Positions 23,531 through 59,283 of a DNA stretch of 64,000 nucleotides are shown in pieces; positions within the stretch are counted from its first letter, which is position 1, and every line of letters starts with the position of its first letter. This DNA is from a virus. The notes under the pieces were generated by a model. The model ran no database searches and was not told the origin of the DNA. It saw nothing but the letters and a program-made list of their open reading frames with translations. Made by a program: the position numbers and the translations under genes. The DNA is taken from IMG/VR virus record IMGVR_UViG_3300014720_000002. One strand, 5' to 3'.

Positions 23531-24391
23531 ATGATGAAAGAGAACAAGATGGTGATCGCGGTCACGTTGACCGCACCCCTGCTGGGCGGGCTGCCCTTCA
23601 GCGACATTGCGCAGGACCACCTGCGCGTCAAGACGGAGAAGGAGAACAAGAAGGACCTCTCCAACCTGGAGCCTCGCGTCGCGGAGGAACTGGCCGTCGC
23701 TGCTGCCCAGGCCGAGCAGCGCCGGTTGCAACTCCTGGCCGCTGGGCTGGACGCCGAAGAGGCGCGCGGCACCACCGGGTTTGCCCGTGACGACATGGGC
23801 TTGTTCGTGTGGGACTATTGGTTCCGTGGCTTCATCAAGGAAGCCCTGGAGACGGTGATCGAGTGCGGCTGTGCACCCGCCGGCTTCAACCCCTGGAACC
23901 GCAAGAAGAAGGTCGATCAGTTGATCTTCGTGGAGCCGCGGCGCATCTATCTGCGCAAGCCGTCAGCGGAGCGCACGGCGTCATCGTCCACGGTCTGGAC
24001 CGAATCCCCCGGTTTCAACACCCGGCCGATCCGGACGGAGGATCAGCGCACTGGCGCCCAGCGCACGGCCATCGCGCGCAGCGAGGAAGTGCCGGAAGGC
24101 ACCTGGTTCGTGGCCGAGTTGGTGTATCTTGGGCCGGAGGAGGTCAAGGTCAGCAAGAGCGGCAAGTCGCAACCGATCGTGACCAAGGAGTTGATCGCAG
24201 ACATCCTCACCTACGGCCGCCGAAAGGGTCTCGGTCAGTGGCGGTCTGGTGGCTGGGGCACGTTCGACTGGCAGGAGTTGCCGGACAACAAGCTGGTGAT
24301 CAAGGCGTCCCGTGGTGTCGCCTCCGTGCCCAAGCAGGGCATCCACATCGAATGCACTCCCGGCTGTCCCCAGCCGGCCGTTGCGGTCTAG
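23531..24391 (+). CDS. Orphan Cas7-like RAMP protein (candidate Vipr-type guide-RNA-binding effector)
   Basis: RAMP architecture: N-terminal IAVTLTAPLLGG, GTTGFARD..GLFVWDYWFRGFIKEA, DQLIFVEPRRI, RPIR...RTAIARSEEVPEGTWF, and a C-terminal glycine-rich loop YGRRKGLGQWRSGGWGTF. A/C-rich leader AAAACAAACAAACGGT before ATG 23531. Confidence 0.85.
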   Translation: MMKENKMVIAVTLTAPLLGGLPFSDIAQDHLRVKTEKENKKDLSNLEPRVAEELAVAAAQAEQRRLQLLAAGLDAEEARGTTGFARDDMGLFVWDYWFRGFIKEALETVIECGCAPAGFNPWNRKKKVDQLIFVEPRRIYLRKPSAERTASSSTVWTESPGFNTRPIRTEDQRTGAQRTAIARSEEVPEGTWFVAELVYLGPEEVKVSKSGKSQPIVTKELIADILTYGRRKGLGQWRSGGWGTFDWQELPDNKLVIKASRGVASVPKQGIHIECTPGCPQPAVAV

Positions 24392-34564: not shown

Positions 34565-37533
34565 AACTGACCGAAGCACAAGAGCGCTGGCTGGCCGCGC
34601 TGGAGAGCGAACAGTATGCGCAATACACCGGCGCTCTTTGTCGTGTGGATGATGATGACTCCCGCAGCTATTGCTGCCTGGGCGTGGCTGAGATGTCGCT
34701 CGGGACCGAGACGGCCGGCCCGGTGGTGAGTGACGGTAAAAGGGTCATGTCGTTCTTGTCGCGTGACGAGGACGGCGATGTGGAGGATTCGGCACGATGT
34801 GCTGTGTTGTCTGAGTCTGTGTGTCGGCTCGGGTTGAGGTCTCCGACAGGGGAGATAGCACGGGAACACAAGGACGCATTTGACGCCGCGTTGCTGCGCC
34901 ACAGTCCTGACCTGCCGTTCAAGGAGCTAAAGCTGGCGGGTTGCCTGGCCAGTCTAAACGACAAGGTAAGGCCTCCGTTCAAAACCATCGCAGCGGCCAT
35001 CCGTGAGGTTCCCGAAGCAGTGTTTGAAGTATGCTAAAACCAAGTTTGTTCTACACCCGGCAGCCGCACGACGCGGTGATGTCGTCGAATGAGGCCCAGG
35101 TAACGGCCAGGCTGTGCATGAAGTGGCTGATGGAGCAGGGCGATCGCTGGCAGAAGATTCCTCTGCTGTTGATCAACCGCTTTTACCAGGAGGCTGGCGG
35201 CGACCGTAAGCTGTCGATGGATGAGCGGAAGGAGTTTCGCCGCTGGTGCGCCAGTCCCTGGCGGGCCATGGCGTTCTCGCCGGTTTGGTTGAACCTTGGA
35301 CTGGACAAGCTGAGCGTCTTCTTCGCGGCAGCACAGCCAGACGAGCTTCAGGCGTTCCTGGAGTTCCGCCGGCAAGGACTGCATCTGGTCGAGGTGGCCG
35401 AATTGGCCCGGCTGGCGCTGGCGGACGGTGACATGTTCGACAGCGCGGCGGATCAGATGGACTTGTCTGACGCCTACATGAAGAAGGTGCAGACTGGTCT
35501 GCATTACTTCTGCGGTCCCGACCATGGACGCCCCTACCGTTAAGGAACTGCTGCCGGTCATCACGGCGTTTGCCAACCGGCAGCCGATTCAGTTCCGCGA
35601 GCGCAAGACGGATGGCCTGGCCAAGCCGGGCCAGTGGGTTGATGTGAATCCCGACACCACGCAGTTCAGGCTGACGGAGTATGATCTGCTGGTGAGGGAC
35701 TGGAGGGTTAAACCTCAATGAGCAGAAAGCGCAGTCCAGCGAATAAACGTCGGCCGCGTGAGCAGGCGTTCAAGGTGGTGTGGGAGCTAGACCTGGTTAT
35801 GGCGCGGACCCCGCGCGCCGCCGCCGAACAGGCGTTCAAGATCATCCAGGAGCCGGGCACGGAGTGCACGGTGTTCCAGGTGCGCGATCAGTCGGGCAAA
35901 GTGCACGACATCGATCTGTCGGTTGCGGAAGAAGATACAAGCAAATGAACAATCCGAACGAAGCAGAAAAATCTGGGGCCAAGATGCTGGCCGACATCCA
36001 GGTCTGGTTGAAGGCGACCGGGATCGATGCCGCGATGGCGCTTATCGATCTGGTCCGGCGCGGAGAGATCGGTTCGTCCACGGCGGTTGATCCTGAGCAT
36101 GGCACCGTGTTTTTGCTGGCCATGGCGCCAGCGAACCGGCTCGGCTCGCTGGCAGGCATGCCGACCGGGATCCCGGGTGACACCCTGATTCCGATGCCGG
36201 TGGCGCAGCTACTCACGGGCGAACAGGCGCAACAGGTTTCTCAGGCCGGTGCCTCTGGCCGCATGGTGCTCTTCGATGCCACCGCGGCTACCCGCCAGCC
36301 CGCGGCGAATGAGCCGCCTGCGCCGTTCAGCAGCGAGCAGACGCAGGACTGGCGTTACGAGGTGGCCAACGGTGACACTGTGCTGGGTCTTTCGGAGTGG
36401 TGTGCCCATCAGCGGGAGAGCCGTGTCGCAGACAACGCCCAGCCAACGAATGAGCAAACCAAGTCCGGACAGCCGTGAGCAGATGCAGGAGGTCATGGTC
36501 AGGATGCAGGTTTCCCTGACCGTGCCGGCTCGGCTGTCCACCGACGAAGTTCGCCGGCTGGTGCAGCGGGGGCTGAACGGAATGTTTCCGGCTTACCACC
36601 GCCACTACCACCGGACGCAGTTCGCCGAGGAGGCCGACATCTACCGTCCGGAGACGGCCCACACGCGCTGGCACGAGGTGTTCCAGGCGGCAGAAGCAGG
36701 CCAGGACTGTTCGCTTACCCTGACGGAGGCCCTGGAGGCCCTGCGTCGTCCGCTGTCGATTACGGCCGCAGAGTGGCCAGCCGGCACGTCTTTGACGGAT
36801 GCCTGCCGCAAGGTGGAGAATCAACGGCTGCAGATGTGGCAGCATGTCATGGACACGCTGGGCGAGGCGCTGCCGTCGGTCTGGGAAACCATGCCGGGTG
36901 AGGCGGCGCGCTGCGTGTTTGTGGGCACCATGCAAGAGGTCAAGGAGTTCCTGGCAGGGCTTACTCCCCGAGAGGGAGCAAAGTTGGAGATCAGGCACAA
37001 AGGGACAGCGTAACATGAGCAAACCAACAGTCAGGTCGGTGAAGATGTGGGCGCCGGTTATCTGGAACGGCAAGAAGCGCGAGCCGGACTTCTCCACGCT
37101 CAGCCGCCGGCGCAAGGACGCCGAGCAGGTCAGCAATTATCCGCCGGTCCAGGTGGTGGTGCAGTGGGACGGCAAGATCGGCGGCTCCAGCTTCGTCACC
37201 CGGGTGATCTGGGTGCATCAGGTCGAGCTTGCCTTTGCCGGCGGCGAGAAGTTCCTGGGTATTGAGGCGGTGTGTCGCGGGCCGGTTGACCTGGGTCGCG
37301 GGGTCGCGGGGTCAAGGGGCTGATGGTGCGCAGTCCCATTACCGGCCAGGAGTATGTGGTCGAGGCTTCGGCGGGCGGCCTCGTCGGCACTTCTGTGGCT
37401 GTCATCAAGGCGGCTCTGGCGGGATGCAGCCGGGCTGAGGTCAAGGCGCAGCTTGCCAAAGGCCGGGAGCAGTTGCAGCGGGTCAGCCTGGCCGGCACGC
37501 CGGAGTTTTGGTGGGCGGTGGAGAAGATCGTTG

Positions 37534-37955
37534 GGTGATGGCGAGGCAGCGGCAGGTTCTGTTGCTCATTGGTAAGGTCCGTTAATGTCCGGCGCTGTGG
37601 AGTAAAGTGACGGTGAGGCTGGGCTGGGTCACGCATGGTGTTGGTATCGTCCCGATAGGTTACGTTCAGCAAGGTAGCGTGAAGGTGCAGCGCCGGTATG
37701 TCGGCGCCTGGTTTGATCTGGTCTTGCGCAGGTGGTGATCCGTAGCGTCAGGTGAAGTTTCGTCCGGGTGTGGCTCGTCAATGTCGCGCACTGTTCAGCG
37801 AAGGCACTGTGGATCTGGGCCTCGTTCTGTGGCGGTGTTGTGTTGTCCCGTGAGGTTTCGTATTGGTGCGGTAATGCACGCCTCGGCGCAGTGCCGGCAG
37901 GCTACGGTTAGGCCGGGCAATACAAGGCAACGCTTAGCAAAGGTTCAGCAACGCA
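37534..37955 (+). repeat. Degenerate NGY-NN pentamer array A (candidate VIPR-like guide RNA array)
   Basis: 81 pentamers from 37540, 69 exactly NGY. Units of 31,41,31,41,11,36,36,36,31,31,31,46 nt each start with GGY. Fills the gap from a stop codon (37536-38) to the next ATG (37956). Confidence 0.85.
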
Positions 37956-40900
37956 ATGAGCATATTCAATCCCAACGCACTCCCAGACCGGTCACCGATG
38001 GCCGCCATCCGGCCTGAGCACTGGCCGGAAACGCTGGCCGAGTTGTCCTGCCATGACGTGGTCGTGAACTCGGTGCTGCAGGCCAGCGGCCCGCATTATG
38101 CAAACCTGTCGGAGCAGGAATCACTGCGGCTGATGGTGGTGCTGATGGCGCAGCGGCATCAGCATGTGCTGGCGGAAGCCATAACGCAGGAATTCAAACG
38201 TGCTCCGCAGCCAATCGTGCTACCCCACAAACGAGATGATCAGAAAGTTCGGTGAAGGACTCAGCACCCGGCGCGAGACGCACGAGGAACTGGGCGGCGG
38301 CTACGGACCAGACAAGCACAAACCGCTGGTGGCGGAGTTCATCGCCAACGACCAGGTGCAGATCTGGCCCAAGCGTTCCAGCCGCAAAGTGCAGATCGGC
38401 CTGCTGGATCTCTACGCCATTATCGTGCGCAAGAACGCCAACCTGGCCACCCTGGAGAAGGCGCGGGATCGGAAAGCTAAAAAGGAGAGCCAGCGAAAGG
38501 CGCGGCAGATTGCCGCCGCGGATCGACGGCTGCGCAAGGCGGCCAAAACAAACCTATGTTGAGTGAACAAGAGCGGCTGTGCTACCGGTCGCTGAAGGAA
38601 GGCGAAATCATCCAGCATGGTGATTTGGAGCTTGGTGGCGGTGAGCACGACCACTGGACGCCCGTCCTTCATCGGATCGGAAGCCCAGCCCCAGCGCCGG
38701 AATATCCGGCCCACAGCAAGTTCCTGCGACGCATCCTGTGCGCCTGGAAAGCCGACGATGACGGTGTCCTGCATGCCGCCTGCGGACAGGCGTATTGCTT
38801 CGAGCACGAGTTCACCGTTGGTGGTGCCTACCAGTTCTGCCCAGGATGTGGAAAACCCATTCGCCTATGCCCACCAACCTTGATCCCGGAAAGCGAGAGT
38901 TGAAGCGCACCCAGCGCACCAAGCCATGCCACGACTGCCCGTTTGCCAAGCACACGGCACCTGGTGCGTTGGGCGGTTCCACCCCTGAGGTGTATATGGG
39001 GCAGATCCAGGGTCCGTTCTGGCTGCCCTGTCACAACAGCAGCGGCTACGAGGAAAGCCGACGCGACCCGGGACATGAGCAGTGCGCGGGTGCTGCCATC
39101 TTCCGGGCTAATACGGGGCTGGAGCAGTTGATGCCTTCGGCCTTGCTGCATCTGCCTGCGGATGACAGCCAGGTGTTCCGAGGACCGGTGGAGTTCCTGC
39201 AGCACCATCTGGGCTTTACGCCGGAGCAGGTGCTGGCCTGGTTTCGCGCCAACCCGCCACAGAAGCTGCTGCAGGACGAGCTTGCCAAACAGGAAGCACA
39301 GGTGATGTTGCTGCCCAAGAAACCATGAGCGACCTCAAAACCTACGGCAAAGGCACCCGGGTCATGTGCGACCACCATTTCAGCGGCAAGCCGCGCGGCG
39401 TGGTGGTGGCCGTGCTGGAGCCTGGGCGGGGTAGCAGTGCCACGGAAGGCCGGATTCAGGTTCGGCTGACTGAGACGGTTGGGCCTTGGAAGAAAGGCGA
39501 GCTTCGGGAACTGCCGGCCTGGCTGGCGGTGCCACTGGCTCAGCTTCGTCCGCCGCGCGCTGGCGAGTTTTTCACCCGCGTCCTCACCGACTATCAATGG
39601 GCATGAAACAACTGAGCGACCTACAGCCGGAGCCATCCGTGGTGGATGCCAAGGTGGATGAGGTGCTCATGCCTGGCCAACTGAGCCAGGCGGAAGTGAA
39701 GCAGGCCGCCGACAAGGCGGGTCGTGACAAGCTGCGCGTCCAGGGTGCGGCGATACGGATGATTTTCAGTGGCCTTGGTCCGACGAACGACTGGTTTTCT
39801 CATTATGACTGACCGAAAGTTTTACTACCGGGAGTTTCTCATCCGGGTTGTCTCACCTGAGCCGGTGGATTCCATTGATGCGCTGCAGCGGGTGCTGAAC
39901 GATGAGCAGATGGGTGTCTGGTGCTCGCGCGAGCCTCAGCCCGCCCGTATGCTGGACGGCAAACAGACGGCTGACGAATTGAAGCAGATGGGGGCCACGC
40001 CACCGCTCTTCGACCTCGACGACGCCGGCAACGATCTCGATCCGGACGAGTGAACACCATTTTCGATGTTTATCGCCATGGCGCCAACCTCGGTTGGTCG
40101 GCTGACCAGGTGGTGACGGAGGTGCAGCGGCGGTTTAAGGCTGGCACCAAGCTGGGCGCCAACCATCTGCGCAAGCAGTATGCCGACACGGTGATGATGG
40201 ACCGGATCCAACTGCTGGCCATGTGCAAGGACCTGCGGGCCGTGTTGCACAGCTTCAGCCCGGACGGTCGTCCGCATGTGCCGTCGCTGGAAGATCCAGC
40301 CTGGCCGATGGTGCCGGCGGCGCTGCAGTCCAGCGCGGAACTGATTCAGAAACTAACCCCGACCGAAAATGAGTGATCCGATTGAGCATGCCGTGGCCGG
40401 ACTGTTACAGAAGGCCATCGACGAAGGCACCAAGGAAGCGACCCATGCTGCGGTGGAGATGATGTCGGCGGCCTGTGGTTACCTGCTGCCCCGGGTTTCT
40501 TCCGTGGACGTGAACTTGAAGAACGGGCATGCGCGCATCGAGTTTCATTCTCCATGGCGGTCGCTCAACCGCAAGCCGTTGCCGAAGACGCAGCAGCGGG
40601 TGGCTTTACTGAAGGTGCGGCTTGCCCTGACCAGGTATTTCCGGCTGTTCCCACAGTCTGCCGTGCCTCCGATCTCGGTGGTCAACTGCCCGACCTGTAT
40701 CGGCCGAGCGCCCATCAAATGTGCGGAAATGGCCTGGCAGGAGTGGCGTCAGCGGTGCACCAAGGTGGTGCAGGACGCCATCGACCAGAAGGGCTGGGTG
40801 GCTGGCTCGCTGGATGTGGACAAGGCCCATGGGCGGCGGGTGGAGATTCACGGCTATCTGATCGACGCCAAGACCGCCAAGCCGGTGAGCGCCGTCGAAT

Positions 40901-43900
40901 GGGAGGCGTTTGCGCAGATGTTCGATGCTGCGCTGTTGGGACCGGACCAGCAGAAGATCCAGGTGGTGCGGTGCCAGAAGTGTGCCAGGAAGTCCGCGGC
41001 TATCATGAATGGCATCGAGCAGGCCGATCGTCCGTCTCCGGACGCGCAGGATAGTTGTGGTAGCCAGAGTTTCGCCGCATGAAGGGGCTGCATCGCTGGA
41101 TCCGGCATGTGGTGGTGCGCCAGCCGGAGATGAAGCAACAGCAGAGGTTTCCTGGACGCGGCGGGTTCAGGCTGCTGGCTGACGCCCTGCTGTTCATCGA
41201 AGCACACGCTCCGCTCTGGAAGCTGGATTACGCGCCGCCAGGGGTGGAGTCGATCGGCAGCCCAGCCTATTTACCAGGCTTCAGCTATTGTCCCGGTCGT
41301 GCGTTGTCGGAGGTGCAGCGGGAGCTTGATTACATGCTGGCCTGGCGGCATCCGGCTGGGTCGATCAGCCGATGGGGTGTGGTGTCAACGGACCATGCGC
41401 GACTGACGAACCTGGCCGACGAACTGCACATGCTATTCCCGCATCTGGTGCACCGGGTGGTGGAGGTCCCAGAGTTGGCGGAAGTCCCGTGGAGTTCCTG
41501 GGACGAGCCAGTGAACGGCACGCATCCGCTGTGGAAGCTGCCGCAGGTTCCGCTGGGAATTCAAGTTGTGCTGGGCGGACGCTGGATGAAGCACTCCGTG
41601 CCGGTGCCTACGCCGGCAGGGGCGGATGCGCAGACGGGTGAGTTGGGTGAGCGAAGCATGATTCTATGATGAGTGAACCGTTGGCGGAAGGTCATCTGAG
41701 ACTGAGAGACAGGGAGGGCTGTGACCACGGAGTGCTGGAGGATCTGTTCAGCCGCATCTCCCGGCATCTGCTGAAGCAGAACGCCAAGGCCAAGAACGAC
41801 AAGGGCGCCTGCCGGTATTTTCAGCCCGACACCGGGCGCAAGTGTGCGGTGGGCTGCCTCATCCGGCCGGACACCTACGTGGAGACCATTGAGGGCTGCG
41901 AAGTGGACAGCGATGAAGTTCGTCAGGTGCTGGAACACTCTGGCGTGAGTGTCGCCCATCGGGCGGTTCGTGATCTGCTGATCCTGCTGCAGCGGGTGCA
42001 CGATCACGAGGATGTCGAGGACTGGGCGCATGTGCTGACGCACATGGCCAAGGAAAACGGATTTGAAATGCCATGCCTAAAGAACTGACTTACGGCGATC
42101 TGCTCAGCCAGACCGGCACCGCGGGTCCGCGGCCGTTCCTGCACTGCCCAGCGTGCGATACGCGCTACTCGGCCAACGCGGCCGACTACTGGGATCGCGA
42201 CAAGTGCGAGGTCATCCGCTGTTGGCGCTGTGAAGAGCCGTTGCTGCGGGTCCGAGAGGAAACCAGACTGGTGGAGACTTGAGCATGAACTTGCATATCG
42301 ACGCGGAAGATCTGGTCAGTGCGTTTGGACGGCAGTTGCTGGGTGTCCGGGTGTTTGTCCTTGAACCCCGGGGCGAGGTGCCTGCTGGTTGGGCCACGAT
42401 CCGGCAAGTTGTGCCTGACAAAGAGGAGCCAACCATCGTGCTGCAGGTGACCCAGGACAACTACGGGTCGATCGGTGTTTTTGACAACGAGCGGCTGATG
42501 GTCCCCATCAAGAAGGGGAAACGGCCAGGACAGTTCCAACTGTTGCATGCCGTGCCGTCCAAGCGTAAAGCCCGAAAAGCATGAAGCCAAAATTCTACAC
42601 CCCGCCGAAGTTCGAGTGGGACGGCCCTTATGACGGAGGCAAAAGCCCGCGCTGGTGCTGCCAGCACAAGGAACTGCGAGGGTTGGATGTGGTCGAGCCG
42701 CTGGGGAACAACAAAGGCTGTCTGCTGGTCTATTTCCGAAACGACCACCTGCAGGACTTGTTTGGCGAAGGCACAGGCGGTTCTACGCTGCTGGATGGAG
42801 ACCAGTTCAAGGACAAGGACGAGCTTGCGGGGTTCGCCCTGCGGCTGGTCCGCTGGCACGCCAAGGCGGTGGAGAAGGTGCCGGTGCCGACCGAGGTCAA
42901 GGCGCTGGTGGGCCGAATCCGCCACGAACTGCACGCGCAGGCGCAGAAGCTGCGCGAGCAGTGCGTCTATCACGAGATCCTGCGCCAGGCTGTGGACCGC
43001 GTGCTGCCGACCGTCGGGCTGGAGCCTTACGACGAACCAGGAGACCTGGCCGCCAATCTAATCCGCAAGCTCAACGAGTTCGTCCTGCCCTGCGATCCGC
43101 CCAAGTCGCCGCCCTTCTTCAGCGAGGGCAAGCTCTACGACCTGCTCGGCAAGACTGATGCCCGGGATGTGCTCAGCCTGATCGCCGAGGTGAAGCGCCG
43201 ACTGGACCCGGTGAGAGGTGCGCTATGAAAGGCAAGCACAAGGACCGTCAGCCGGACACCATCCGGGCGGAGATCAAGCGCTGGGAAGATTACCTGGCGC
43301 AGCGCCTTCAGCAGCAGGTGGCCCGCGATGAGGAGTTGAAGCGCCTGCGGATGGAGGAAGAGCAGGTGAACAAGGAATGGCGGGCCAGGCAGGCCGAGTT
43401 TCGTGCTGCAGGCAGCCGGCGGTTTCAGTTACTGCAGGAGTTGGTCCGCCGGGACAACGCAGCAGTGCTGGAAAAGCTGACCGGATTGCGGAGCCAGCTT
43501 GCCCTGTCTGAGCGGGTGGCGGAAGGGTCACCACGGGTGCAGGCGTTCATCAAGGTCATCTCTCGCGGCATCGACTGGAGCGGGCGGTGGGTCTGTGTCT
43601 GGGAACAGGGTGACTTCTGCATACTCACCAAGCGCACCGGGTCGGTGTTCGCCGGCATCGGCTGTCGGGCCGTGGCGCCGGCCCTGCATGGACTCTACGA
43701 CCTGCGGAGGCTGGACCAGCCTGCTGACCACGGTGGTATCGCTGTTGGTCAGGCGCTGGAGCGGAAGTGCTGTCTGGCCAAGCAGGAGGGCGGTCGCCTG
43801 ACTCCGACCATGAAGCAGGAGTGGATCAAGGTGGCGGAAAGGAGTGCGTGAGCATGGCAAAACCAACCATCTATCAAAAGGCCGTGGGCAAGTGCCCCGT

Positions 43901-45208
43901 CTGCGGCCGGTATCCAACCTGGTTCAACGACGTGCCGCTGACGGCCTTCTGCTGGGGACCGACCAAGGGCAGGCGCAACCACGAGAACCGCGAGGCCAGG
44001 TGCATCGTTCCCGGAAAGGCGCAGCCTTATGGGCGTGGTCCGAGGAAGGCGGTGTGGGCAGTGCAAGCAGCAATATGGATAAAGAAATCGAAGCAAGCTT
44101 CCACCAGCAGATCGAAGCGTTCCGTCAGTGTCGGACGAGGTTGATCGACTACAAGGCGCAGGTGTTTCCCAGGGAGCAGCCGGTGCAGGTGAACTGTGCA
44201 CGGTATCAGGGCACGGCCATTGTCATCCTGGACGCGGAGTGTCCGCCTGACATGCTGGCGGTGGGTCTGCCCAATGGAAACCACCACTGGTATCCGTTGG
44301 AGGCATGCACGCCGGCGAATTGGCCTGACCCCGAGCCGCCGGTCAGCGCGGGGACGGCGCTGTTGAAGTTCGGCGCACCGCCGGCTCGCCTACTCACCCG
44401 ACCAATCATCTCGGTGGATCGCCGCACGGGCAAGCTGGGAATCTTTGACGAGTTCGACCTGATCTGGGGTTTCCGGGCGTTCGAGGACGAGGCGCATGCC
44501 GTAGAGATGGCCAAGCTCTGGCTCAAGTCCTTCTGCAACCTGGATCCGGAGGTGGTGCATCCCAACGTGACCAAGATGAAAGTGAACTGATGACCAAAAT
44601 GCCGTTGGTAGTTCCGCGCATGCCGCTGGATGACGCCAAGCCCGACGGTTACATGGAGAGTCTTGACGACTGGATCAAGGCCAACCTGGAGGCGGTGAAG
44701 TGGTTCTTGGAGAACGCCACCGCGGTTAGCACGACTATGTCACCGGCCGTGCGCCTGGTGGTCATCCATTACCACTCCAAACCCGACCGTGCTGGTAACG
44801 TCTATTGGGCGTTCCGCTGCATCGAGCCGAGCACGGGTGGAATGGTGGAGGGCCGGCACGGCGGCGGCGACCCGAACCTGACCCAGGCGCTCTGGCGCAT
44901 GGCTGATGACAACTCTCCCGGCAGCAAGGTGCTGAGGATTCCAAAGGAACTGGGCATCCGTCAGTTTGCCCGGATGATCGACGAACCTGGCTGCGACATG
45001 GCCGGCACGTCCGGCGGTCAGATCTTGGACTACATCTCCAGCCGGATGCCGGCTGGCTTCTTGGAAAGGTTCAGAGCATGACGGACAAGGAAGAAATCGA
45101 ACGGTGGTTGGCCACGCTGCCCGACGGCATGCCGGTGGGTGTCGATGAAGGCGGCCTGACGCTGGTGGCAGAGGATGGGTCGTATTTGGAAGTCGGAGGA
45201 ATATCAGG

Positions 45209-45973
45209 ATGAGCACTCCAAAATGGGTGGCGCCCGCCGGCAGCCAGGAAGGGTATCAGGTGGCCCGGACCAAATTCGTAGCCCACGCACTGCTGGCCGA
45301 GTTCGTGTTACAGAAAGCGCAGCAGGAAGATCGGCCGCTTGAGGTGCTGTCATTTCCCGGCACGTCTTTTCAGTGGGAGCACATGCTGCATGCGGCATCG
45401 TCCGGAGAGATCCGGCTGACCGGGCTTGAGTCCAATCCGAAGGTGTTTCTGAAAGGCGAAACCAAGCTGGAGGCGCTGCAGATGCCGATGCGCTACATCC
45501 ACACTACGGACCTGAACTTCTGGAAGCAGGAAGGCGCGCAGAAGGACGTGGTGTGGCTGGACTACTGCGGACCGTGGTCCAAGCTCAAGATGGCCTCGGT
45601 CAAGGCCATGATAGCCAATCGGCGGCTACGTCACGGCCAGACCGGACCCTTGCTGGCCGTTACGCTCATGGATGGGATGGACTTCCAGACCATCGGCGAA
45701 CTGATGTTGCTGGCCAACACGAAGACCCGGCGATTCAAGGCCCGAGTGGGCGGGATACCGAAGTGGATTGACCAGGTGGCGCGCGAGCATGGCGGCGCGG
45801 CGGAGTTGAAGTTTCTGCTGCATTATCGTGATGGTTTGCGCAAGGCCACGCCCATGCTGACGTTCGTGCTTCAGTTGCACGACCGGCCGAAGAAATTCGA
45901 TGTTTGGAATGCTGCCACGATGGATCTTCTACAGGATCGCCTGACCGCCATCATCAACCGAATAGGAAGGTAG
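45209..45973 (+). CDS. Possible class I SAM-dependent methyltransferase-like protein
   Basis: LEVLSFPG...IRLTGLESN...DVVWLDYCG resemble motifs I, II and IV of Rossmann-fold methyltransferases. Confidence 0.5.
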   Translation: MSTPKWVAPAGSQEGYQVARTKFVAHALLAEFVLQKAQQEDRPLEVLSFPGTSFQWEHMLHAASSGEIRLTGLESNPKVFLKGETKLEALQMPMRYIHTTDLNFWKQEGAQKDVVWLDYCGPWSKLKMASVKAMIANRRLRHGQTGPLLAVTLMDGMDFQTIGELMLLANTKTRRFKARVGGIPKWIDQVAREHGGAAELKFLLHYRDGLRKATPMLTFVLQLHDRPKKFDVWNAATMDLLQDRLTAIINRIGR

Positions 45974-48373
45974 CTGCATGAACTACATCTCGGACGGGAC
46001 AGTGATCGATCAGCGCACCTACGACGGGCTGTGTGACATCTTCAACCGGGTGGCGAGCCATCTGCTGAAGCAGGCCCGGCGAGCCGTTGCGCACTCGGCC
46101 ACGGGCGGGATGGGCTGCCGCTATCGGTTGTGCGACGGACGGGCCTGCGCGGTCGGTTGTCTCATCACCGATCAGAATTATCATGACGGGCTGGAGCGCA
46201 AGAATTCCGATGACCCGCTGGTTGTTTCCGCCGTGACGGCCAGCCTCGGCCGGTCGCTCACCAAGCATGAGCAGCAGTTGCTGGAAGCGCTGCAGCATGT
46301 GCATGACATCGACCTGGCGACCTGGGGCGATGATTCCGGCATCCCAGCTTGGTCGATCGTGGCGTCGCTGAACCGGGTGGCGCACCGGTTTGACCTGCCT
46401 GGACTACCGAAACCCAAAGACGCACCAGCCGGCGTATGAGCACTCCGAGACTGGAAATTCGGCAGCTTGGTCTGACGCACGTCACCCAAAGCTGCCCGTG
46501 GGGCCTCTACAGCCGTCACGGGCATCGACTGCTGTGCTCGGACGGACAGGTGCGCGCCGCCACTCTCGCCTCTACCCCGGACACGTTCTTCAGCGTGCCG
46601 GCGTCGGTGCGGGTGAAGGGCAAGACTGTCTCGGGCTACATGACGGTTGAGGAGGCTGGTGGCGGCAAGCTGCGTGCCTACGTGTTCCGCCATCATACGG
46701 CTCACCGGGACAAGCTGCCGGCCTGGCCTGACCGGTTCACTCCGGAGCATGAGAGGCTGGTGAACAGTGTGATTACGCATGATCAATCAAAAGGAACTGA
46801 CCGCGCTGGTCGCTGAGGGGGCGACGCTGCTGGCGGTGTATCGGTTGCGGGAGGATGGCGATGGCGATTTCATCGCCTTGTTCGACATCGAGAACTGCGC
46901 GGAGCGGTTCGCCGACAATACCGGCGACGGTGCGGCTGTGTTGGCTGCCGTTGTTCAGGCCGGCCTTGCGGACGACGGCGAGGAAGCCGTGTGGGTCTGC
47001 TTCCAACGGATGGCTGATGTGGTGGACATTCTGGAGGGAGCCCAGGAACGGTGGGAAGCTCAACGTGAAAAGCCGCACAACCCCGTGCCGTGAATGTCCC
47101 TGGCGCCGAGCTTCGGCGCCAGGATGGCTGGGTAGCGAGCAGACGCCGGAGGAGTGGGTGAAGACAGCGCATGGTGAGGTGACCGTGGAATGCCACACGG
47201 AAGCGCCCAAGCTGTGTGCTGGCATCGCCATTTACCGCACCAACGTCGCCAAGAAACTTCGCAACGCCAGCGTGCCCATCCTGTCCGGCGATAAGTCTAA
47301 GGTGTTTGCTACGCCGGCGGAGTTCATCCAACACCACCGGTCTGGTGTGGTCAGCAGTGAGATCAAAACATGAGCAAACTTGATGCAGCGGTCGAAGAAG
47401 TGCAGCGCGCTTTGGAAGGGTTCACCGAGGACTGCTTGACCAATCATCCGGAACAACGGGTGGAACTGGAGGCGGCCTGGTTGCTTATCCGGCGTCGGCT
47501 GTTGCGCCTTCCCTCAGATGGGTTGCGATGTGGGGAGCGGTTGTATCTGGATGGCAATCTGCATGCGGTCTGCACTCAGCCAGGAGGGGTTGAGCACACG
47601 CATCACGATCTGGACGCTCAGCAGGCCATCGCGGCAGGGCTGGCCCGTCCGGCCTCGGACACAGATCGGCCGCATGCGCCAAGTGAGGTGCAGAACCAGC
47701 AGGTGGCTGAGTGGCCTTGGCAGGATGCCGGGGTGCATCCATTCTCTCCGCATGAACTTGGCCTGAGGGATAGCGAGGGCGCGCAAGACTGGATCAGCAA
47801 TGATGAGTTGGTAGGGTTGTCGGAGGCCCGCCCTGGCGGCATCATCGGCTACATTCATCGACTGCACGCCGACCGGATTGCCGGTCTTTTGAACCTGGCC
47901 GGGATGGTGGTTGAGAACGAACATGATTAACATGGTGGAACACATTCGGGCAGACCGGCGGTTGACTGCCCAGGCCAAGGTCAGTCAATTCTCTTGATCT
48001 ACATGACCACCGAGGAACTCTTCGACGCGGTGGCGCCCATCGCCATCTACCACTGCACGGACGTGCGGTTCCAGCAGCGGGCCAAGGTTGGCCTGCGCAA
48101 GCTGAAGGCTGCCGGAGTGCAGCTTCCGGACGAACCGCTGGATGATTTGGCTGACTGGGCCAAGGACGAGCACGACCGGCTGTTCATTGAGATCGTCAGC
48201 GATCTCGCCCCGGAGTGGACCTGGGATTACGACCGCTGGGGTGCCAAGGCATGGAAAGATGAACGCGGCGCGCTGGTGTTCGCCGGTGACGCGCACGATC
48301 AGTTTCCTTGGTATGAGACGGCGGCTCTGCTGAAGGAGCGGGTGCTGGAGCATCAACTGGAGGGAGCGACGGC

Positions 48374-49030
48374 GTGAACGACGAGCAACTGATCAGTTTG
48401 ATGGACAAGGTCGCGGAGGATCACGCCAGCCGAGGGCAGACCTACGCCGGCGGACCCTATCGCAAGCACCTGGAGGATGTGGAGCGCCTGCTGAGGACCG
48501 CCTGTAACGTCGCCTGGGTGGAAGAGGAGTCGGTCGGCGCTTTGCTTGCCGCCGGCATCCTGCACGACTGGTTCGAGGACTGCTTTGACGGGTCGCACAA
48601 GTTCTCACACTGGCGCCTGACCGGAACGCTGATTGACTGGCAGGGTGAGTTTGGCGTGCCAGCCGTCAGCCTGATGATGGCGCTGCGCTGCTCCGATCCG
48701 CCCGGCATGTCGCGACGTGAGGCCAAACGGGCTATCTTGCCGGTTATCGTGGCCTGCGAAGGTGCCCGGGCAGTCAAGCTGGCTGATCGGATGGCGAATC
48801 TGGAGCAGAGCATTGCTGACCGCAATCGAAAGCATCTGGAACGCTACATTGAAGAGGCTAGGCAGTTAGCGCCGGTGGCGGACCAGCTTGAGACTCCGGT
48901 TGATGCAGTGCAGGAGACTCGACACTACGCCCCGGTGCGAGACTACTTGGCTGGTTGCTATGCGGATGTCCTGGCTCGGGCCGCCGAGAGTTTTCATACT
49001 CTGCGCGGCCCGACCAATGCGGTGAAGTGA
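48374..49030 (+). CDS. RelA/SpoT-type HD-domain (p)ppGpp hydrolase-like protein (small alarmone hydrolase-like)
   Basis: H..GQTYAGGPYRKHL..V...AAGILHDWFEDC...EFG...RAVKLADRMANL. Confidence 0.78.
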   Translation: MNDEQLISLMDKVAEDHASRGQTYAGGPYRKHLEDVERLLRTACNVAWVEEESVGALLAAGILHDWFEDCFDGSHKFSHWRLTGTLIDWQGEFGVPAVSLMMALRCSDPPGMSRREAKRAILPVIVACEGARAVKLADRMANLEQSIADRNRKHLERYIEEARQLAPVADQLETPVDAVQETRHYAPVRDYLAGCYADVLARAAESFHTLRGPTNAVK

Positions 49031-49376
49031 CGGTATTGGAACGCTTAGCCGCGTGCCGCCATGCCTAGCACAGGCTACGTGCGGTCCGGTCAGGTCTCGT
49101 AATGGTAAAGTGACGCAAAGTCGGGCTTCGTCGAGCGATGGCCGGGTGTGGTCAAGCAGGGTGTGGTGGTTCAAAGTTAAGGTGTCGCGTCGCCTAGTCA
49201 GGTCACGCGCCGGCAATGGATGGTGCCGTCCGGTTTAGCAGCGCAGCGGCATAGTGACGAAAAGGCCTGTAACGTGAAGCACAGGTAAGGTGCCGTGAGG
49301 CATGGTGAGGTCTGGCACAGGTAAAGCAGAGTCACGCGGGGTCCGGTTCAGGCGAGGATAGGTGGAGTCACGCAGC
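49021..49376 (+). repeat. Degenerate NGY-NN pentamer array B (candidate VIPR-like guide RNA array)
   Basis: 69 pentamers, 68 with central G, 63 exactly NGY. Units of 11,41,31,36,41,31,36,36,36,31,26 nt, all starting with GGY. Ends directly at ATG 49377. Confidence 0.9.
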
Positions 49377-50708
49377 ATGCAGATTCGATTGAAAGAACGC
49401 TGGCAGGCGTGGGTGGAGGTGTGGACCGCCATCCGCGCCTGCCATGCCGGCAGGAACGAGAAGCTGGAGGTGCGGCGCACCGGACAGGTCTGGGACGTCG
49501 GTGCCAGACAGTATCGCGAGCGGCTGGAGTTCCGGGCCGCCGACAACCCCGGCTGGGAAGGCTACAACCGCTCCCGGAACCTGCTGGCGACGAAGGTGCC
49601 GCGCCTGTCCAAGGCGCTGGAAAAGTTGAAGTGGATATGAGCAAGAAGACGATGACCCTGGTGGTCGAGATCGAGTATGATGGGTTGGAAGGACCGTTCC
49701 GACCTGCCCTGGTGAACAAGCTCAAGGACCGGCTGCACGCCATGGTTGAGCGCGAGGCTGGCGAGGGCGGGCTGTCGCCGGACGATGGCAGTGTGGCCGT
49801 GGCAAGCTGGGACGCCCGGGTGGCTGATGGGCCGCTCACGCTGCTGAACCCGGCGCAGGTGCGCGATCTCAGCAAGCTGCTGGATTACACTGAGGCGGAT
49901 GAAGAGCGACACTACGAGGAGAGCAAACCCTGCCGCAACCACATCTGGCATTCGATTCGCCGGCTGAGGAAAGCTACACCCGAACCATGAACCTTTACTC
50001 ATTCGGAGCCGCGGCCAGGGAAGGCGCCTGCCGAGCAACCTGGGACCCTAAGCACAGCAACTTCGTGATGCACATCTGGCAGAAGGGTAAGCCGACGCCC
50101 ATCGCCACCTGCCGGGATACCACGCAGGAGAAGTGCGAGGCGGCGGCGCGGCAGGTCAAGGAGGCGCTGGAGCTTCAGGCGCGGCTGGAGTCGCCGGAGT
50201 TCAGCGCCGCGCTTAGGCTTGCCCTGGAGGGCACGCTGACTACCCGGCTGCGTTCGGTGCACGGGCTGGACCCGTTCTCACGGAAGCGCACCAAGCGCGC
50301 GGCTGAGTTGGAAGTCGAGTTCTTGGTTGGCGCCATGAGCGCCATCAACGCGACGTTTCCTGGGCGTGACTCCGAACTCAGCAGCAAGGTGCCGGTTTAT
50401 TGGCCCATGTGCCTTATGAGTGGGCGCTCGGTGCTGCAGTCCGCGAAGAAGTCATGAAGCCACTATATTACTACGTCCTCATCGACAGTGAAACCTTGGC
50501 GCGGTTGCAAGCACGGGTTGCCACCAGGTTCCGATTCCACGGGCGCATCCAGGTATTTCGGATCGAGCGCAACCAGGTGATCAAGGCAGAGAGTCTCTGC
50601 ATCCAGTGCCCAGACCAGTTGTCCGCTGAAGTGCGGGATGATCTGCTCAGCTTTGTGGCTGGTTTCGTTGAGGGGGCCGACCTGCAGTCATCGACCGCCC
50701 ACCTGGGT

Positions 50709-50736
50709 GTAACGGAGCCGTCGGTTGTGACATAAG
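50709..50736 (+). promoter_or_regulatory. Class I promoter GTAAC-N18-ATAAG
   Basis: Exact 18-nt spacing; followed by a structured leader and ATG at 50800. Confidence 0.7.
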
Positions 50737-51194
50737 ATGGTGAAGGAAGAGCTTCCTTTACCGGCAGTGTTGCCGGGCAACCATCAACGAAAGCCAAGTA
50801 TGAAAGCACTGTGGAACCACCTGAGAATCGATCAACGTGCCGCCCTGGCCACTGCCTTTGGCGTGGTCTTGATCGTGGCCATCGGCCTGCTGCTCGCCCG
50901 TTACGGCGTGCCGGGCAGCCAGAATGCCGGGATCGTCCGGCTGTCGGTTGAACTGCCGCCGGGTCAGTCCCGTGCGGAGATCCTCCTGCCGGGCGGCTCG
51001 TCCGGTAGCTGGGACGAGATCCAGCAGATGATCAGCAGCATCCGCATCACGCGGAATGACGGCAGCACGCGGGACTTCAGTCCCCATCAGTTCGACAAGC
51101 TCAGCCAGGAGACACACGCGTTCCGGGAGGTCACGTTAATCACGACCAACCACGCCAGGATCACTTTGGCCAGGCAACCTTGAACGCAGCGAAC

Positions 51195-51250
51195 GGCCCG
51201 CTGCCGGTCCAGTAGGATCGGCAGCGGGCCGGTTATCCAATCCTTTAGTT
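51195..51250 (+). terminator. 16-bp hairpin followed by CCTTTAG
   Basis: GGCCCGCTGCCGGTCC-agta-GGATCGGCAGCGGGCC (one G-U pair), then TCCTTTAGTT at 51241. Confidence 0.6.
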
Positions 51251-52012
51251 TATGGGTGTGCATCAGCGTAAATTCGGGAAGGAGAATCCTCTCAAGTTCG
51301 ATTGCGTCACGTTCATGACGCTGGCGACCAGGCATCGCTTTCGCGAGGTAAGCGGCTGGTTTCCGCAGGAGGAAGAAACCTACCGTCTGCCGGCTGAACT
51401 GCAGTTGGCCAACTGGTATGGTAATGCGCCGCAGCAACCGGATCAGGCGGCCATGCAGCATGATGAGTCGGCTGACCTGGACGCGCTGGCCGATGTTACT
51501 CGACCGTTCGGCTCCGAGCGGTGGCATGACTTTGATCGTCTGCCATTGGCAGAGCGGTTGGAGGCTCTGAAGCTGTTCTACGATGATCTCACCTGCGACC
51601 TGCAGTCGCTGCGGCAGAGATTCAAACCGGAGGAGGTAGAGAACTACACCGGCCCTGACAGTCCTGCTGCTGAGTTGAAAAAGCTGGTCCGTTACCGGCA
51701 ACGTGTGGCGCGAAAAATCGAGCGCGTGCGCCGCACGATCGACAAGCAGGAAAAGCTACGGCTGCAGATGCAGGCGTCGCGCGACCGCCTACGGATTGTT
51801 TGGGAGAGGTCGGACCGCGCTAAGGAGGAAAAGCAGGCGTCGGCGAAATGGCAGCGTCAGTTGGAGTTGCTGACCTATCTCGCCGAGGCCAAGGCGAAGA
51901 GCGATCACTACGCCAACAAATCCCGGAGGCACAGCCCGCAGGCTGCCATGGCTGATCGTGGAAGTCAGGCACTCGGCGGGTAAAACCGAGTGCCAACAAA
52001 AGTAAAAAATCT

Positions 52013-52312
52013 ATGTCAAATCCAAGCGCAACGCCGAAGCCCAAGACGCCAGCCGAGTTGTCCTGCACTGACTTGTTAGGATGCCCGTTCTGTGGTGAAC
52101 AGCCGGAATACTCGCCAGCCGCCAAAGACCCAAACAACCCGCCGTATGGCTGGCCACACACGCTAAACCACAACTGCAAAATCATCGGAAGGCAAATCTG
52201 CATCCGCTGCGACTACTCCAAATGTGAGGACACAAGAGCGGCGGTGACTGCCGTGTGGAACACTCGCTGGCATCCTAACCATCAATCTGCGGCGCGACAA
52301 CTGTTCGCTTAA
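52013..52312 (+). CDS. Lar-like (restriction alleviation) zinc-finger protein
   Basis: LLGCPFCGEQ...C...AAVTAVWNTR matches the CPFCG...A...WN.R pattern. Confidence 0.65.
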   Translation: MSNPSATPKPKTPAELSCTDLLGCPFCGEQPEYSPAAKDPNNPPYGWPHTLNHNCKIIGRQICIRCDYSKCEDTRAAVTAVWNTRWHPNHQSAARQLFA

Positions 52313-53404
52313 ACTATGAGTAAGTCGGAGAAGCTGAGAAAATTGGCCAACGCCGTTCGGCGTTACCGCGGCCTGCTTGGATCGCCTGGGCATGACGGCG
52401 TGGTCCGGTGGAAGCAGCCACCCATACCTTCAGCCAAGGACGATGTCCGGCGCTGGCTGGGCAGGCTGGGCCTGGATGTGGAAGCGCATCTGCGGCGTGT
52501 GGACGAGTTTCCTTCGCTGCAGCAGTTCGCGGAATGGCTGGAAGAGTTGGAGAATGGCAATGAGCACGTTGTGGCAGGAACTTCGGAAGTGGGAAAATCA
52601 TGAAAAGAAACTGGCTGATCAGGCATTACCAGGCGGCGCTGGTGTTCGCGAGCCGGACCCGCAATCGCCCCCTGTCCGACTACGTTCGACAGGAGTTGAA
52701 AAGGTGGTCGGCGGCACCGTCCTCTGGAAGCCGGTCGATCGCCTAGCGGCTAAGATGCTGGCCAAGTCGCCCTGGTGGGCGCAGCCAGTGCATGTGCCGA
52801 CACCGCCACCAGCGGCGCCGGCTGCAGTTGAGAAGGCAAAAAAGAAGAGAACACACAAGATTATGGGAGACAACGCTGTCATTGTGGAGACAGGAGACAA
52901 GCGTGCGCCACAGGATGTCCGTCCGCGGATGAACGACGCGAGCTACACGAGCGCATGCGGGCTGGAGGTGCACCGGATCAACGGGCAGGACATGATTTCG
53001 CTGGAGAGTGCGCAGACTGTCCTCTGTGCCGAGATTGCGAAAATGCCCAAGGAGACGCGACCGCTGGTTTTGGCCGCCCAGGACGCCCGACGGATCGTTA
53101 ATGAGTTGACGGACGGCATTGGCGCCGATCAGGAAAAGTTCAGGGTCAGTGCCAAGATGTTCCTGGAGGATGTCCGCCAGACCCGGTTTGCGGTGGTGCA
53201 GGAGGCCAGCGCAATGATGACGCCATTGCGCGATGTCCGCACTTTCTTCCTGGGGCCGGATTACAAGGAGCAGGTGACCAGGTTGAAGGAGTTCGTGGAA
53301 CTTTGCGAGCGGCTGCAGAAGCTCAAGGAGTCGGGTTTCCTGGATAACGTCGCGGACACCATGCTGCGACTGGCAGATCGGCCAGCCACCGGCGCCTGAT
53401 TGAA

Positions 53405-53486
53405 TGCGCTGTGGTGCTTGGAAAGGTCTCGTGCGGTCGCGTTAAGTCACGGTCCAGTGAGGGCGTGGCAAAGTCCTGCGCGGAAC
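53405..53486 (+). repeat. Short NGY-NN pentamer array D
   Basis: 16 pentamers, all with central G, 14 NGY; two 6-nt phase steps at 53451 and 53462, each followed by GGY. Starts 6 nt after the stop at 53399. Confidence 0.7.
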
Positions 53487-53529
53487 CGCACCAGTTGGGC
53501 TTCGGCCCGCTGGTGCGGTTTCCTTTAGC
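53484..53529 (+). terminator. Nested hairpin (11-bp outer stem plus GGGC-UUCG-GCCC) followed by CCTTTAGC; closes array D
   Basis: AACCGCACCAG / CTGGTGCGGTT is a perfect stem. Confidence 0.7.
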
Positions 53530-53540
53530 CATCCACTCCC

Positions 53541-53568
53541 GCAACCAAGCACGCCGCTGTGTCATAAG
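53541..53568 (+). promoter_or_regulatory. Class I promoter GCAAC-N18-ATAAG
   Basis: Exact spacing; lies upstream of the MYG1-like gene. Confidence 0.7.
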
Positions 53569-53647
53569 CCTTTGGACAGGACTGTTTCTTGTCTGGGAGC
53601 ATCCGGCCTCCAACCATTTAAGCAACTGCCGGAAGGAGAACTGTAAC

Positions 53648-54730
53648 ATGTCAAAGATCAAAGAGGCGGCGATCCTCAAAATCGTCACTCATCCCGGCCG
53701 GGCGCACCGGGATGAGTTTCTGGCCATCGCCATCGTGCTGGCCAGCCTGCCCGCCGCGCAGATGCGGCAGGTCGCCATCGAACGCCGTCAACCCAAGCGC
53801 GAGGACACCCTGGATAAGGGCGTGCTGGTGCTGGACATCGGCGGCGGTGAATTCGACCACCACCAACTGTCCCCAGAGGCGCCGGCGACCTGTGCGCTCA
53901 CCCTGGTGCTCAAGGACCTCGGGCTGCTGGAGCAGGCGCGCGAGGTCTGGTCGTGGCTGGAGTTTGTCGAGGTCATGGACAGCAAGGGACCGGGGGCGGT
54001 CGCCTCGCGCGCCGGCGTGCCCTGGGACAAGCTCTCCGGGCTGACCATGAATCCGGTCGAGATGTGGGCGCTCCATTGGTTCGCCAACAACCCGGACAAC
54101 ATGAAGGACGTGCTCAACGGCGTCGGTGCCCGGTTGTTGTCCGAGCTTGCGGACTACCGGTCGGCCCTGACCCTCCTGGACGCGCACGCCCATGTGGTGT
54201 TCGTGCGCGGGGTGGCGTTGCTCGACCTCACATTCACGAGCGACACGACCGCCGTCAACAAGTGGCGCATGCAGCACTGCCCTCACGCCAAGGGCAGCAT
54301 CATGAAGGACGACCGCGGCGGGGGCTACACGCTCTACGCCTGGCAGATGGGCGGCGGGTCCGGCTGGCTGGACTTCCGCCGGCTGGCGCATCCCGGCATC
54401 ACCTTCATCCACAATGGAGGGTTCCTGGCCAAGACGCGGATGACGGTGACGTTCCGTGAGGTTCTGGATCTGCTGACACAGGCGCTGCCGTCGGAGCCGG
54501 TCTGCCTCGGCAGCATGGTGGGCAATGGGTTCTCGGTGCAGGGAAGCTGGCAGCCGGCGCCGACAGATGACGGATCGCATTTCGTCATGGTGACGATCGG
54601 GACGGCCAAGCACGGGTGTGTGGAAGGTATGCTCTGCTTCCGCACGGAGGCGGCGCTGCGCTCGGCCATGAGCCATGTGCGCAACCGCATTGAGATCAGC
54701 CTGTCGAAGGGGGAGGTGGCCCATGCTTGA
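53648..54730 (+). CDS. MYG1-family (UPF0160) metal-dependent nuclease-like protein
   Basis: IVTHPGRAHRDEFLA...VLDIGGGEFDHHQ...DSKGP...FIHNGGFLAKT. Confidence 0.85.
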   Translation: MSKIKEAAILKIVTHPGRAHRDEFLAIAIVLASLPAAQMRQVAIERRQPKREDTLDKGVLVLDIGGGEFDHHQLSPEAPATCALTLVLKDLGLLEQAREVWSWLEFVEVMDSKGPGAVASRAGVPWDKLSGLTMNPVEMWALHWFANNPDNMKDVLNGVGARLLSELADYRSALTLLDAHAHVVFVRGVALLDLTFTSDTTAVNKWRMQHCPHAKGSIMKDDRGGGYTLYAWQMGGGSGWLDFRRLAHPGITFIHNGGFLAKTRMTVTFREVLDLLTQALPSEPVCLGSMVGNGFSVQGSWQPAPTDDGSHFVMVTIGTAKHGCVEGMLCFRTEAALRSAMSHVRNRIEISLSKGEVAHA

Positions 54731-55208
54731 AGTGCGCATGCACTGGCGCCGAGGTCATCTGCACACAGTGAAGTTCGGCAAGGGTCGGGAGAGTTCCCGG
54801 CTGGACTGGTTCGAGCCGATATTGGTCAATGCGCCGGAAGGAAAGGAGGTGAACGTATGAGCGAAAAGAGTGAGCAAGTGCTGCGGGACGCCATCGAAAA
54901 ACATGTTGGCGCACTACTTCACGCAGAGTTGCAACGGGACGAACTGCATGTCTATCTGTCCTGGGACAAAGCTAGTGGAAAAGTCACGGTTAATTGCTTC
55001 TCGACCTTGGCGCTGAACCTTCTCGATCGATCGCATAAGACCACCGTCGGCGGCTTGGACGAGTTGATCGACAGCGTGTTGGAGGGCTGCGACCGAAAGC
55101 AGGCCAAGGTTTGTCTGGACCAGATACAGGCAAGCTTGGACAAGGCTCGTGCTGGCTGGCAGAAAGTATGCGCTGAGTGGGATCGGGAACATCGACCTGC
55201 GAATCGCA

Positions 55209-55593
55209 GGTAAAGCAAAGGTGAGGCGAGGTGTAGCATCGTTGCGTGCGGTTCAGGTGTAGTGCCGTGAAGATGGGTAATGTAAAGCGCCGGCGAGGTG
55301 ATGCTTGGTGTGGTGGCATCGCGTTTGGAACAGTATTGGAGACGCGGCGCACAGCATGGTAGCGCAATGTGGTGGCGTCGTATCGAGGCGCTGAGTATTG
55401 GCCTGGCACGGCGGCGGTGGGCACCGTAAAGCTACGGCATGGTCACGTCAGGTTCAGTGCAGCACAGGTAACGCGACGCAAGGTTCGGTTTCGTGCTGTC
55501 ACGTATCGGTTTGGGTGGGTCGAGCGCTGGGCTGTCAGGCAAAGGCGAGGCGGGGTCTGGTCCGGTTTCGTTACGTCGTGCGCTGTGCCGACG
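55209..55593 (+). repeat. Degenerate NGY-NN pentamer array C (candidate VIPR-like guide RNA array)
   Basis: 75 pentamers, 74 with central G, 66 NGY. Units of 11,36,36,46,36,26,36,31,41,36 nt plus a final ~50-nt unit. The upstream TAA (55211-13) is embedded in the first pentamer. Confidence 0.9.
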
Positions 55594-55639
55594 AACACCA
55601 GTTGGGGCGCAAGCCCTGGCTGGTGTTCGTCCTTTAGCT
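55591..55639 (+). terminator. Nested hairpin (11-bp outer stem plus GGGC-GCAA-GCCC) followed by CCTTTAGCT; closes array C
   Basis: ACGAACACCAG / CTGGTGTTCGT is a perfect stem; same architecture as 53484. Confidence 0.7.
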
Positions 55640-59231: not shown

Positions 59232-59283
59232 GAAGTGGGCGGGCTGGGGCGCAAGCCCTGGGCTGTCCACTTCCTTTTAGCTG
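59232..59283 (+). terminator. Nested hairpin (GGGC-GCAA-GCCC inner stem) followed by CTTTTAGCT
   Basis: GAAGTGGGCGG / CTGTCCACTTC outer stem with two G-U pairs; shares TGGGGCGCAAGCCCTGG with the 55591 element. Confidence 0.65.

What the first reader, a model, noticed from the sequence alone, without database searches (positions are those of the whole stretch)
37534..55593. Higher-order grammar: units of 5n+1 nt that nearly always reopen with GGY
Seen: the pentamer phase slips by exactly +1 nt at intervals of 26, 31, 36, 41 or 46 nt, mostly 31-41. Every slip is NNN followed by GG(Y), with one GGA exception at 55338, although fewer than half of all triplets are GGY (30 of 69 in array B). The last triplet of a unit is often AGY. 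Short 11-nt units occur at the starts of B and C and inside A and D. Inference: the slip marks guide boundaries (processing or filament termination), giving guides of 5-9 steps.
Basis: partly seen in the sequence, partly recalled or inferred. Interest (0 to 1): 0.8.

Follow-up and report, generated by a model that had tools for sequence, protein, structure and literature searches.

The report
Register-slip punctuation in VIPR arrays
The regular one-base slips are real. They divide four guide-RNA arrays of a phage VIPR system (a CRISPR-related, RNA-guided DNA silencer described in 2026 preprints) into about 35 cassette-like guides, so this is a well-supported example of a known kind of element, not a new system.

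Summary
Observation confirmed. Four non-coding NGY/NN pentamer arrays (37.5, 49.0, 53.4, 55.2 kb) lie in a 168-kb phage. All 35 slips inside them are +1 and reopen with GG (34 GGY, 1 GGA), against 38% G internally (p≈7e-12). Spacing is far tighter than random indels would give. The partner is a stand-alone RAMP at 23531-24391 (Csm3-like fold; G-loop homologous to SUSP1 Vipr), 13-32 kb upstream. Its homologues carry the same grammar in 105 distinct arrays (1027 of 1114 clean slips followed by G), and related arrays gain and lose units with breakpoints clustered at slips. So the slips are functional module borders, most likely guide boundaries. RNA processing there is untested, and I found no targets. 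The VIPR discovery preprint already mentions 'staggered' arrays and YNNNG repeats, without RNA confirmation; this scan found the same grammar on several other genomes. Open points: whether the paper's '1-nt overlap' is this +1 form or a −1 form seen with another Vipr clade, and a weak statistical hint that all three variable bases per step are read.

The parts
23531..24391 (+). Vipr-like stand-alone RAMP (286 aa, P0002), presumed guide-binding protein acting in trans on the four arrays
   Evidence: Fold matches Csm3/Cas7 (Foldseek E 1e-7; VIA Z 11.7, rmsd 4.1, 165 aligned). G-loop aligns with SUSP1 Vipr (hhalign E 3e-4, probability 39%, 46 columns). A staggered array was found in 106 of 167 homologue loci, typically next to the gene. 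It is the only member of the family in the genome.
37540..37956 (+). Array A: 12 complete 5n+1 units (one of 11 nt at 37684) plus a partial 3' unit; starts right after a stop codon
   Evidence: stop codons in all six frames
49021..49375 (+). Array B: 11-nt opener, nine complete units of 31-41 nt, partial 3' unit; lies between an HD-phosphohydrolase gene and the next ATG
53405..53481 (+).
53482..53528 (+). Terminator-like GC hairpin with UUCG loop followed by a CCTTTAG tail; the source of the only non-GG and −1 'slips'
55209..55588 (+).
55590..55637 (+). Terminator-like hairpin with GNRA loop and CCTTTAG tail, related to the one at 53482 and to hairpins at about 51190 and 59235 that follow no array

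Best explanation
The four tracts are staggered VIPR guide-RNA arrays. Each is co-transcribed with the phage's small-gene operons (inferred). The RAMP encoded at 23.5 kb coats the RNA at one protomer per pentamer, gripping GY and presenting the variable bases to DNA (shown for SUSP1 Vipr; inferred here). A unit reads GGY-NN, then (NGY-NN) repeated, then one extra N. The extra base breaks the 5-nt register, so one filament cannot run on into the next unit. It ends there, and the next filament starts on the invariant GG, with a weak GGY-R-W preference. The array is thereby split into about 35 separate guides of 5-9 steps, most likely released by cleavage or trimming at the unprotected linker base (inferred). 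Each guide would direct silencing of a different site in competing phages or mobile elements (shown for type II VIPR; not shown here). The same border motif also serves as the usual breakpoint when arrays gain, lose or duplicate units (supported by comparison). The first base of internal triplets is free because this clade has Gln in place of the G1-binding Asp177 of SUSP1 Vipr (alignment shown; causal link inferred).
For: Grammar is exact in the window and conserved across 105 arrays beside homologous genes from phages, prophages and genome bins of many phyla. RAMP fold and Vipr-type G-loop. W178 and R179 (G2/Y3 contacts in 10.64898/2026.04.26.720927) are conserved in 160-161 of 165 family members, while D177 is Q in 158. 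Whole-unit gain, loss and duplication; breakpoints cluster at slips. First G invariant, linker base most variable, p=0.03. No hairpin, ribozyme or Rfam family between units that could mark boundaries otherwise. The discovery preprint describes staggered arrays and YNNNG repeats.
Against: No RNA data. No decoded unit has a convincing target in the own genome, in 3.6-5 Mb of fetched loci, in IMG/VR (5 exact patterns) or in metagenomes (1 pattern, truncated). Five or six steps read as two bases each give only 10-12 specified bases, which is low for unique targeting. The vipr gene lies 13-32 kb from the arrays, so the pairing here rests on it being the only family member in the genome. About a quarter of breakpoints fall inside units.
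Confidence: 0.75

Rival explanations
1. Filament punctuation without cleavage: the array stays one long RNA carrying several short Vipr filaments, like beads on a string, each unit acting as its own guide. The slip ends filaments, but no RNA is cut.
For: The sequence data cannot tell cleavage from mere filament termination. No nuclease gene or ribozyme is tied to the arrays, and boundary conservation beyond GG is weak.
Against: Other VIPR array types yield separate small RNAs. The A-rich bias before GG and the R-W after it would suit a processing or nucleation signal.
Confidence: 0.13
2. The slip is only a scar of how units are acquired or recombined (a cassette border). Functional guides span more than one unit, with the extra base bulged out.
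For: Short units carry few specified bases. In-register recombination preserves 5n+1 automatically, and some chimeric units exist. The across-slip junction test was inconclusive (z 1.5).
Against: The G after the slip is under strong constraint (0/82 changes; 92% family-wide), and spacing is narrow in every lineage. Neighbouring units are freely re-assorted between strains, which would break guides that span units.
Confidence: 0.09
3. The slips are random indels in a decaying pentamer repeat.
For: None beyond the degeneracy of the triplets.
Against: All slips are +1, G follows at p≈7e-12, spacing variance is 2.1 versus 36.9, and the pattern recurs in over 1,200 slips elsewhere.
Confidence: 0.01

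Closest known systems
VIPR systems with 'staggered' vrRNA arrays and YNNNG-type repeats (bioRxiv 10.64898/2026.04.26.720920, main text, methods, legends of figs S17 and S18)
   Same: Stand-alone phage RAMP; non-coding pentamer arrays with a YNNNG consensus; a one-base register shift taken as the border between successive vrRNAs; no CRISPR repeats or other cas genes.
   Different: The legend speaks of a '1 nt overlap' and I could not see the figure. It may show this +1 form (sharing one G of GG) or the −1 GGCa|GGY form I saw beside a different Vipr clade (L031, L146). Here four arrays are dispersed 13-32 kb from the gene, whereas most homologues have the array next to it. The paper did not confirm staggered arrays by RNA sequencing.
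Type II VIPR of Escherichia phage SUSP1 and the Pseudomonas fulva prophage (10.64898/2026.04.26.720920; .720927; 10.64898/2026.10.15.759431)
   Same: RAMP fold with homologous G-loop (W, R and thumb R kept); 5-nt repeat with fixed G and pyrimidine; phage-encoded.
   Different: SUSP1 guides have 9-16 strict GGY/NN repeats, each with a structured 3' tail. Here units have 5-9 steps, the first base of internal triplets is free, there are no tails between units, Asp177 is replaced by Gln, and no vap gene was identified.
Class 1 CRISPR crRNA arrays (Cas7/Csm3 backbones)
   Same: RAMP filament on a guide RNA; an array of many unique units that are gained and lost as modules (from own knowledge).
   Different: No direct repeat, Cas6, Cas5 or Cas1; the border is a single-base register shift; the step is 5 nt rather than 6.

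Membership tests
VIPR system | Stand-alone RAMP (RRM core, thumb, G-loop) outside a CRISPR locus | tested here: met
   (Csm3/Cas7 fold); no CRISPR-like tandem array in the window; single family member in the genome
VIPR system | Sequence homology to a described Vipr | tested here: inconclusive
   Only the C-terminal helix and G-loop align with SUSP1 Vipr (hhalign probability 39%, E 3e-4); W178, R179 and often R138 are conserved in the alignment. X1U2U4 and the paper's type alignments were not available.
VIPR system | Non-coding pentamer repeats GGY/NN or a related consensus (NNNGG, YNNNG, NNNNG) | tested here: met
   YNNNG-type consensus; the three long arrays have stops in all six frames
VIPR system | Array genetically linked to the vipr gene | tested here: met
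   Arrays found in 106 of 167 homologue loci, mostly within a few hundred bases of the gene. In this phage the link is in trans at 13-32 kb, and its closest relatives show no adjacent array on short contigs.
VIPR system | Guides decode by the one-base-skip rule to natural DNA targets | tested here: inconclusive
   No target above chance under skip 0-3 or three-base reading; the units are too short and the exact scans too few to exclude targets
VIPR system | Accessory vap gene beside vipr | tested here: inconclusive
   Neighbouring genes are small unknowns (DUF8296 / phrog_18067); none identified as vap
VIPR system | vrRNA expressed and bound by Vipr; silences its target | not testable with these tools
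Staggered vrRNA array (fig. S18) | Successive units offset by one nucleotide, the end of one marking the start of the next | tested here: met
   35 of 35 array slips are +1 and open with GG
Staggered vrRNA array (fig. S18) | Offset is a '1-nt overlap' in the same sense as the published figure | tested here: inconclusive
   Figure not visible; both +1 and −1 forms exist in nature
Type II VIPR (SUSP1) | 9-16 strict YNNGG repeats with a conserved structured 3' tail per guide | tested here: not met
   Units of 5-9 steps, 38% G at the first triplet position internally, no tails between units (SUSP1 control)

The most novel reading that the evidence does not exclude
The +1 (5n+1) grammar is a separate architecture from the published staggered array, which may be the −1 form. 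It is tied to a large Vipr clade (at least 931 clusters at E≤1e-30, G-loop G-x-G-Q-W-R) that has lost the G1 contact and reads three bases per step. A unit G(GY-NNN)n would then encode a contiguous 15-27-nt target, which would explain why its guides are so short. Support is only statistical: genome-like base correlations across the GY scaffold (z 4.0-5.6, about half the positive-control effect; regression slope 0.23±0.10 after correcting for local DNA bias) and codon-like triplets in this window (p 0.003-0.03). Stop-codon tests were weak, and no target confirms it.
Probability: 0.2. Interest if true: 0.62.

Novelty: new member of a known kind. Interest (0 to 1): 0.3.

Why it matters
Staggered VIPR arrays were proposed but, by the discovery paper's own account, not confirmed by RNA sequencing. 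This phage offers very clean arrays (35 slips, all +1 and all opening with GG), and the family comparison gives statistical and evolutionary support that a single-base register shift delimits guides. If confirmed, it is a minimal way to multiplex many RNA guides from one transcript with one small protein and no repeat or processing nuclease. If the third variable base is also read, it would be a second VIPR code.

Tried and rejected
The best hits were rejected: a 22/24 match in a soil patatin-like gene not in wobble frame, and an 18/18 low-complexity match of an L159 unit to a host ion-channel gene. Tandem Repeats Finder does not see the arrays. No Rfam match and no tRNA in the window. The arrays are not more structured than shuffles. 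The hairpins behind two arrays were considered as vrRNA tails and rejected as phage-wide terminators, because relatives occur away from arrays. No homologous arrays or sister phages were found via the MYG1 gene or array DNA. The family was not found in PLSDB and only in four uncultured records of INPHARED. The paper's supplement holds no locus tables.

Full report
Setting. The window lies in a single 167,647-bp viral contig (IMG/VR record, linear, estimated 86% complete) with dense small genes on the + strand and an RNA polymerase beta-like gene. The finding's 18-kb span contains four short non-coding tracts, not one.

Observation. A pentamer parse finds arrays at 37529-37956, 49021-49375, 53405-53521 and 55209-55588 and nothing comparable elsewhere in the genome or in shuffles. 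The parse is unchanged with symmetric slip penalties. There are 36 +1 slips (21 GGT, 13 GGC, GGA at 55338, AGT at 53493). The AGT and the one −1 slip fall in a terminator-like hairpin that ends the short array, so all 35 true array slips open with GG. Using a parse blind to the first base, 32 of 34 clean slips are followed by G against 37.8% internally (p=7e-12). Unit lengths are 26-46 nt with variance 2.1 against 36.9 for randomly placed slips. All 33 units of five or more steps are unique.

Protein partner. Its model (pLDDT 76) matches Csm3/Cas7, and its C-terminal helix and G-loop align with SUSP1 Vipr, though weakly. In 165 family members the residues that bind G2 and Y3 in SUSP1 (W178, R179) are kept, while the G1-binding D177 is Q in 158. 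That fits the free first base of internal triplets; H17 could not be aligned. The family is large (931 clusters at E≤1e-30).

Family test. Of 167 loci fetched around homologues, 106 hold such arrays, typically right beside the gene. In 105 non-redundant arrays, 1288 of 1487 slips are +1, and 1027 of 1114 clean +1 slips open with G against 28% internally; unit lengths peak at 26-36 nt. Boundaries carry a weak wider motif: A-rich before GG and R-W after it. Related gut-phage arrays differ by whole-unit insertion, loss and duplication. Of 90 breakpoints, 66 lie within one pentamer of a slip against about 33 expected if uniform; point mutations inflate this somewhat, and some chimeric units exist. 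Among homologous units the opening G never changed (0/82) and the extra base changed most (14/82 versus 38/439, p=0.03). The random-indel reading is refuted.

What it does. From the SUSP1 structures (one protomer per pentamer), an extra base must break a filament's register, so each unit is most simply one guide that starts on GG. Targets were sought under all skip rules in the own genome, in fetched loci, in IMG/VR and in metagenomes, without a result above chance. With 10-18 specified bases per unit and only six exact scans, this is weak evidence either way.

A side question is whether the free first base is read. It changes between strains at a rate like the NN bases. Removing GY gives strings whose junctions show genome-like correlations (z 4-5.6 against within-unit shuffles, about half the positive control), partly confounded by local DNA bias (slope 0.23±0.10). 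Window triplets are mildly codon-like, but stop-codon tests add little. I treat three-base reading as a hypothesis.

Comparison with what is known. [quoted passage not shown] The grammar here fits that description. One doubt remains: a −1 form (GGCa|GGY in strict GGY arrays) occurs beside a different Vipr clade in L031 and L146, and it is the more literal overlap; L031 carries both genes, each with its own array type. Earlier reports of this scan describe the same +1 punctuation on other genomes; they are not independent evidence.

Verdict. It belongs to an architecture already outlined in 2026 preprints and seen repeatedly by this scan. Local peculiarities are four arrays acting at 13-32 kb from the only vipr gene and unusually clean punctuation. 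New member of a known kind; interest 0.3.

Noticed in passing
L031:910-1143 and L146:10392-10627: Strict GGY arrays with −1 slips, always GGCa|GGY (units of 5n−1), next to a different Vipr clade (G-loop with E-G-R or E-W-R). L031 has this system in tandem with a Q-W-R-type vipr and its own +1 array, so the grammar seems to follow the protein clade.
   Followed up: partly
genome C1 about 164473-164900 (outside the window): A second minimal RAMP-like gene with a G-rich C-terminal loop, not matched by the Vipr family profile and with no array nearby.
   Followed up: no
window 51190-51250, 53482-53528, 55590-55637, 59235-59280: A family of long GC hairpins followed by a CCTTT(T)AG tail, probably phage terminators; two of them end arrays.
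   Followed up: partly
window 23531-24391; L298-L301: This Vipr has an N-terminal helical insertion and a C-terminal tail (286 aa versus about 210 in relatives). Its three closest relatives (75-86% identity) also lack an adjacent array, judged from two contig sets scanned and gene calls for the third, so dispersed arrays may be a lineage trait.
   Followed up: partly
L058, L059, L143, L147 and other gut loci: Many homologous arrays use NGA as often as NGY, so the third scaffold base is H rather than Y in part of the family.
   Followed up: no
L043:6628-7153: An array downstream of vipr that scored best on the opposite strand, besides a normal one upstream; C-rich NGC arrays read almost equally well on both strands.
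   Followed up: no
window 53648-54730 and 48374-49030: Genes next to the arrays encode a MYG1-like exonuclease (Pfam PF03690) and an HD phosphohydrolase; no evidence links them to the arrays.
   Followed up: no
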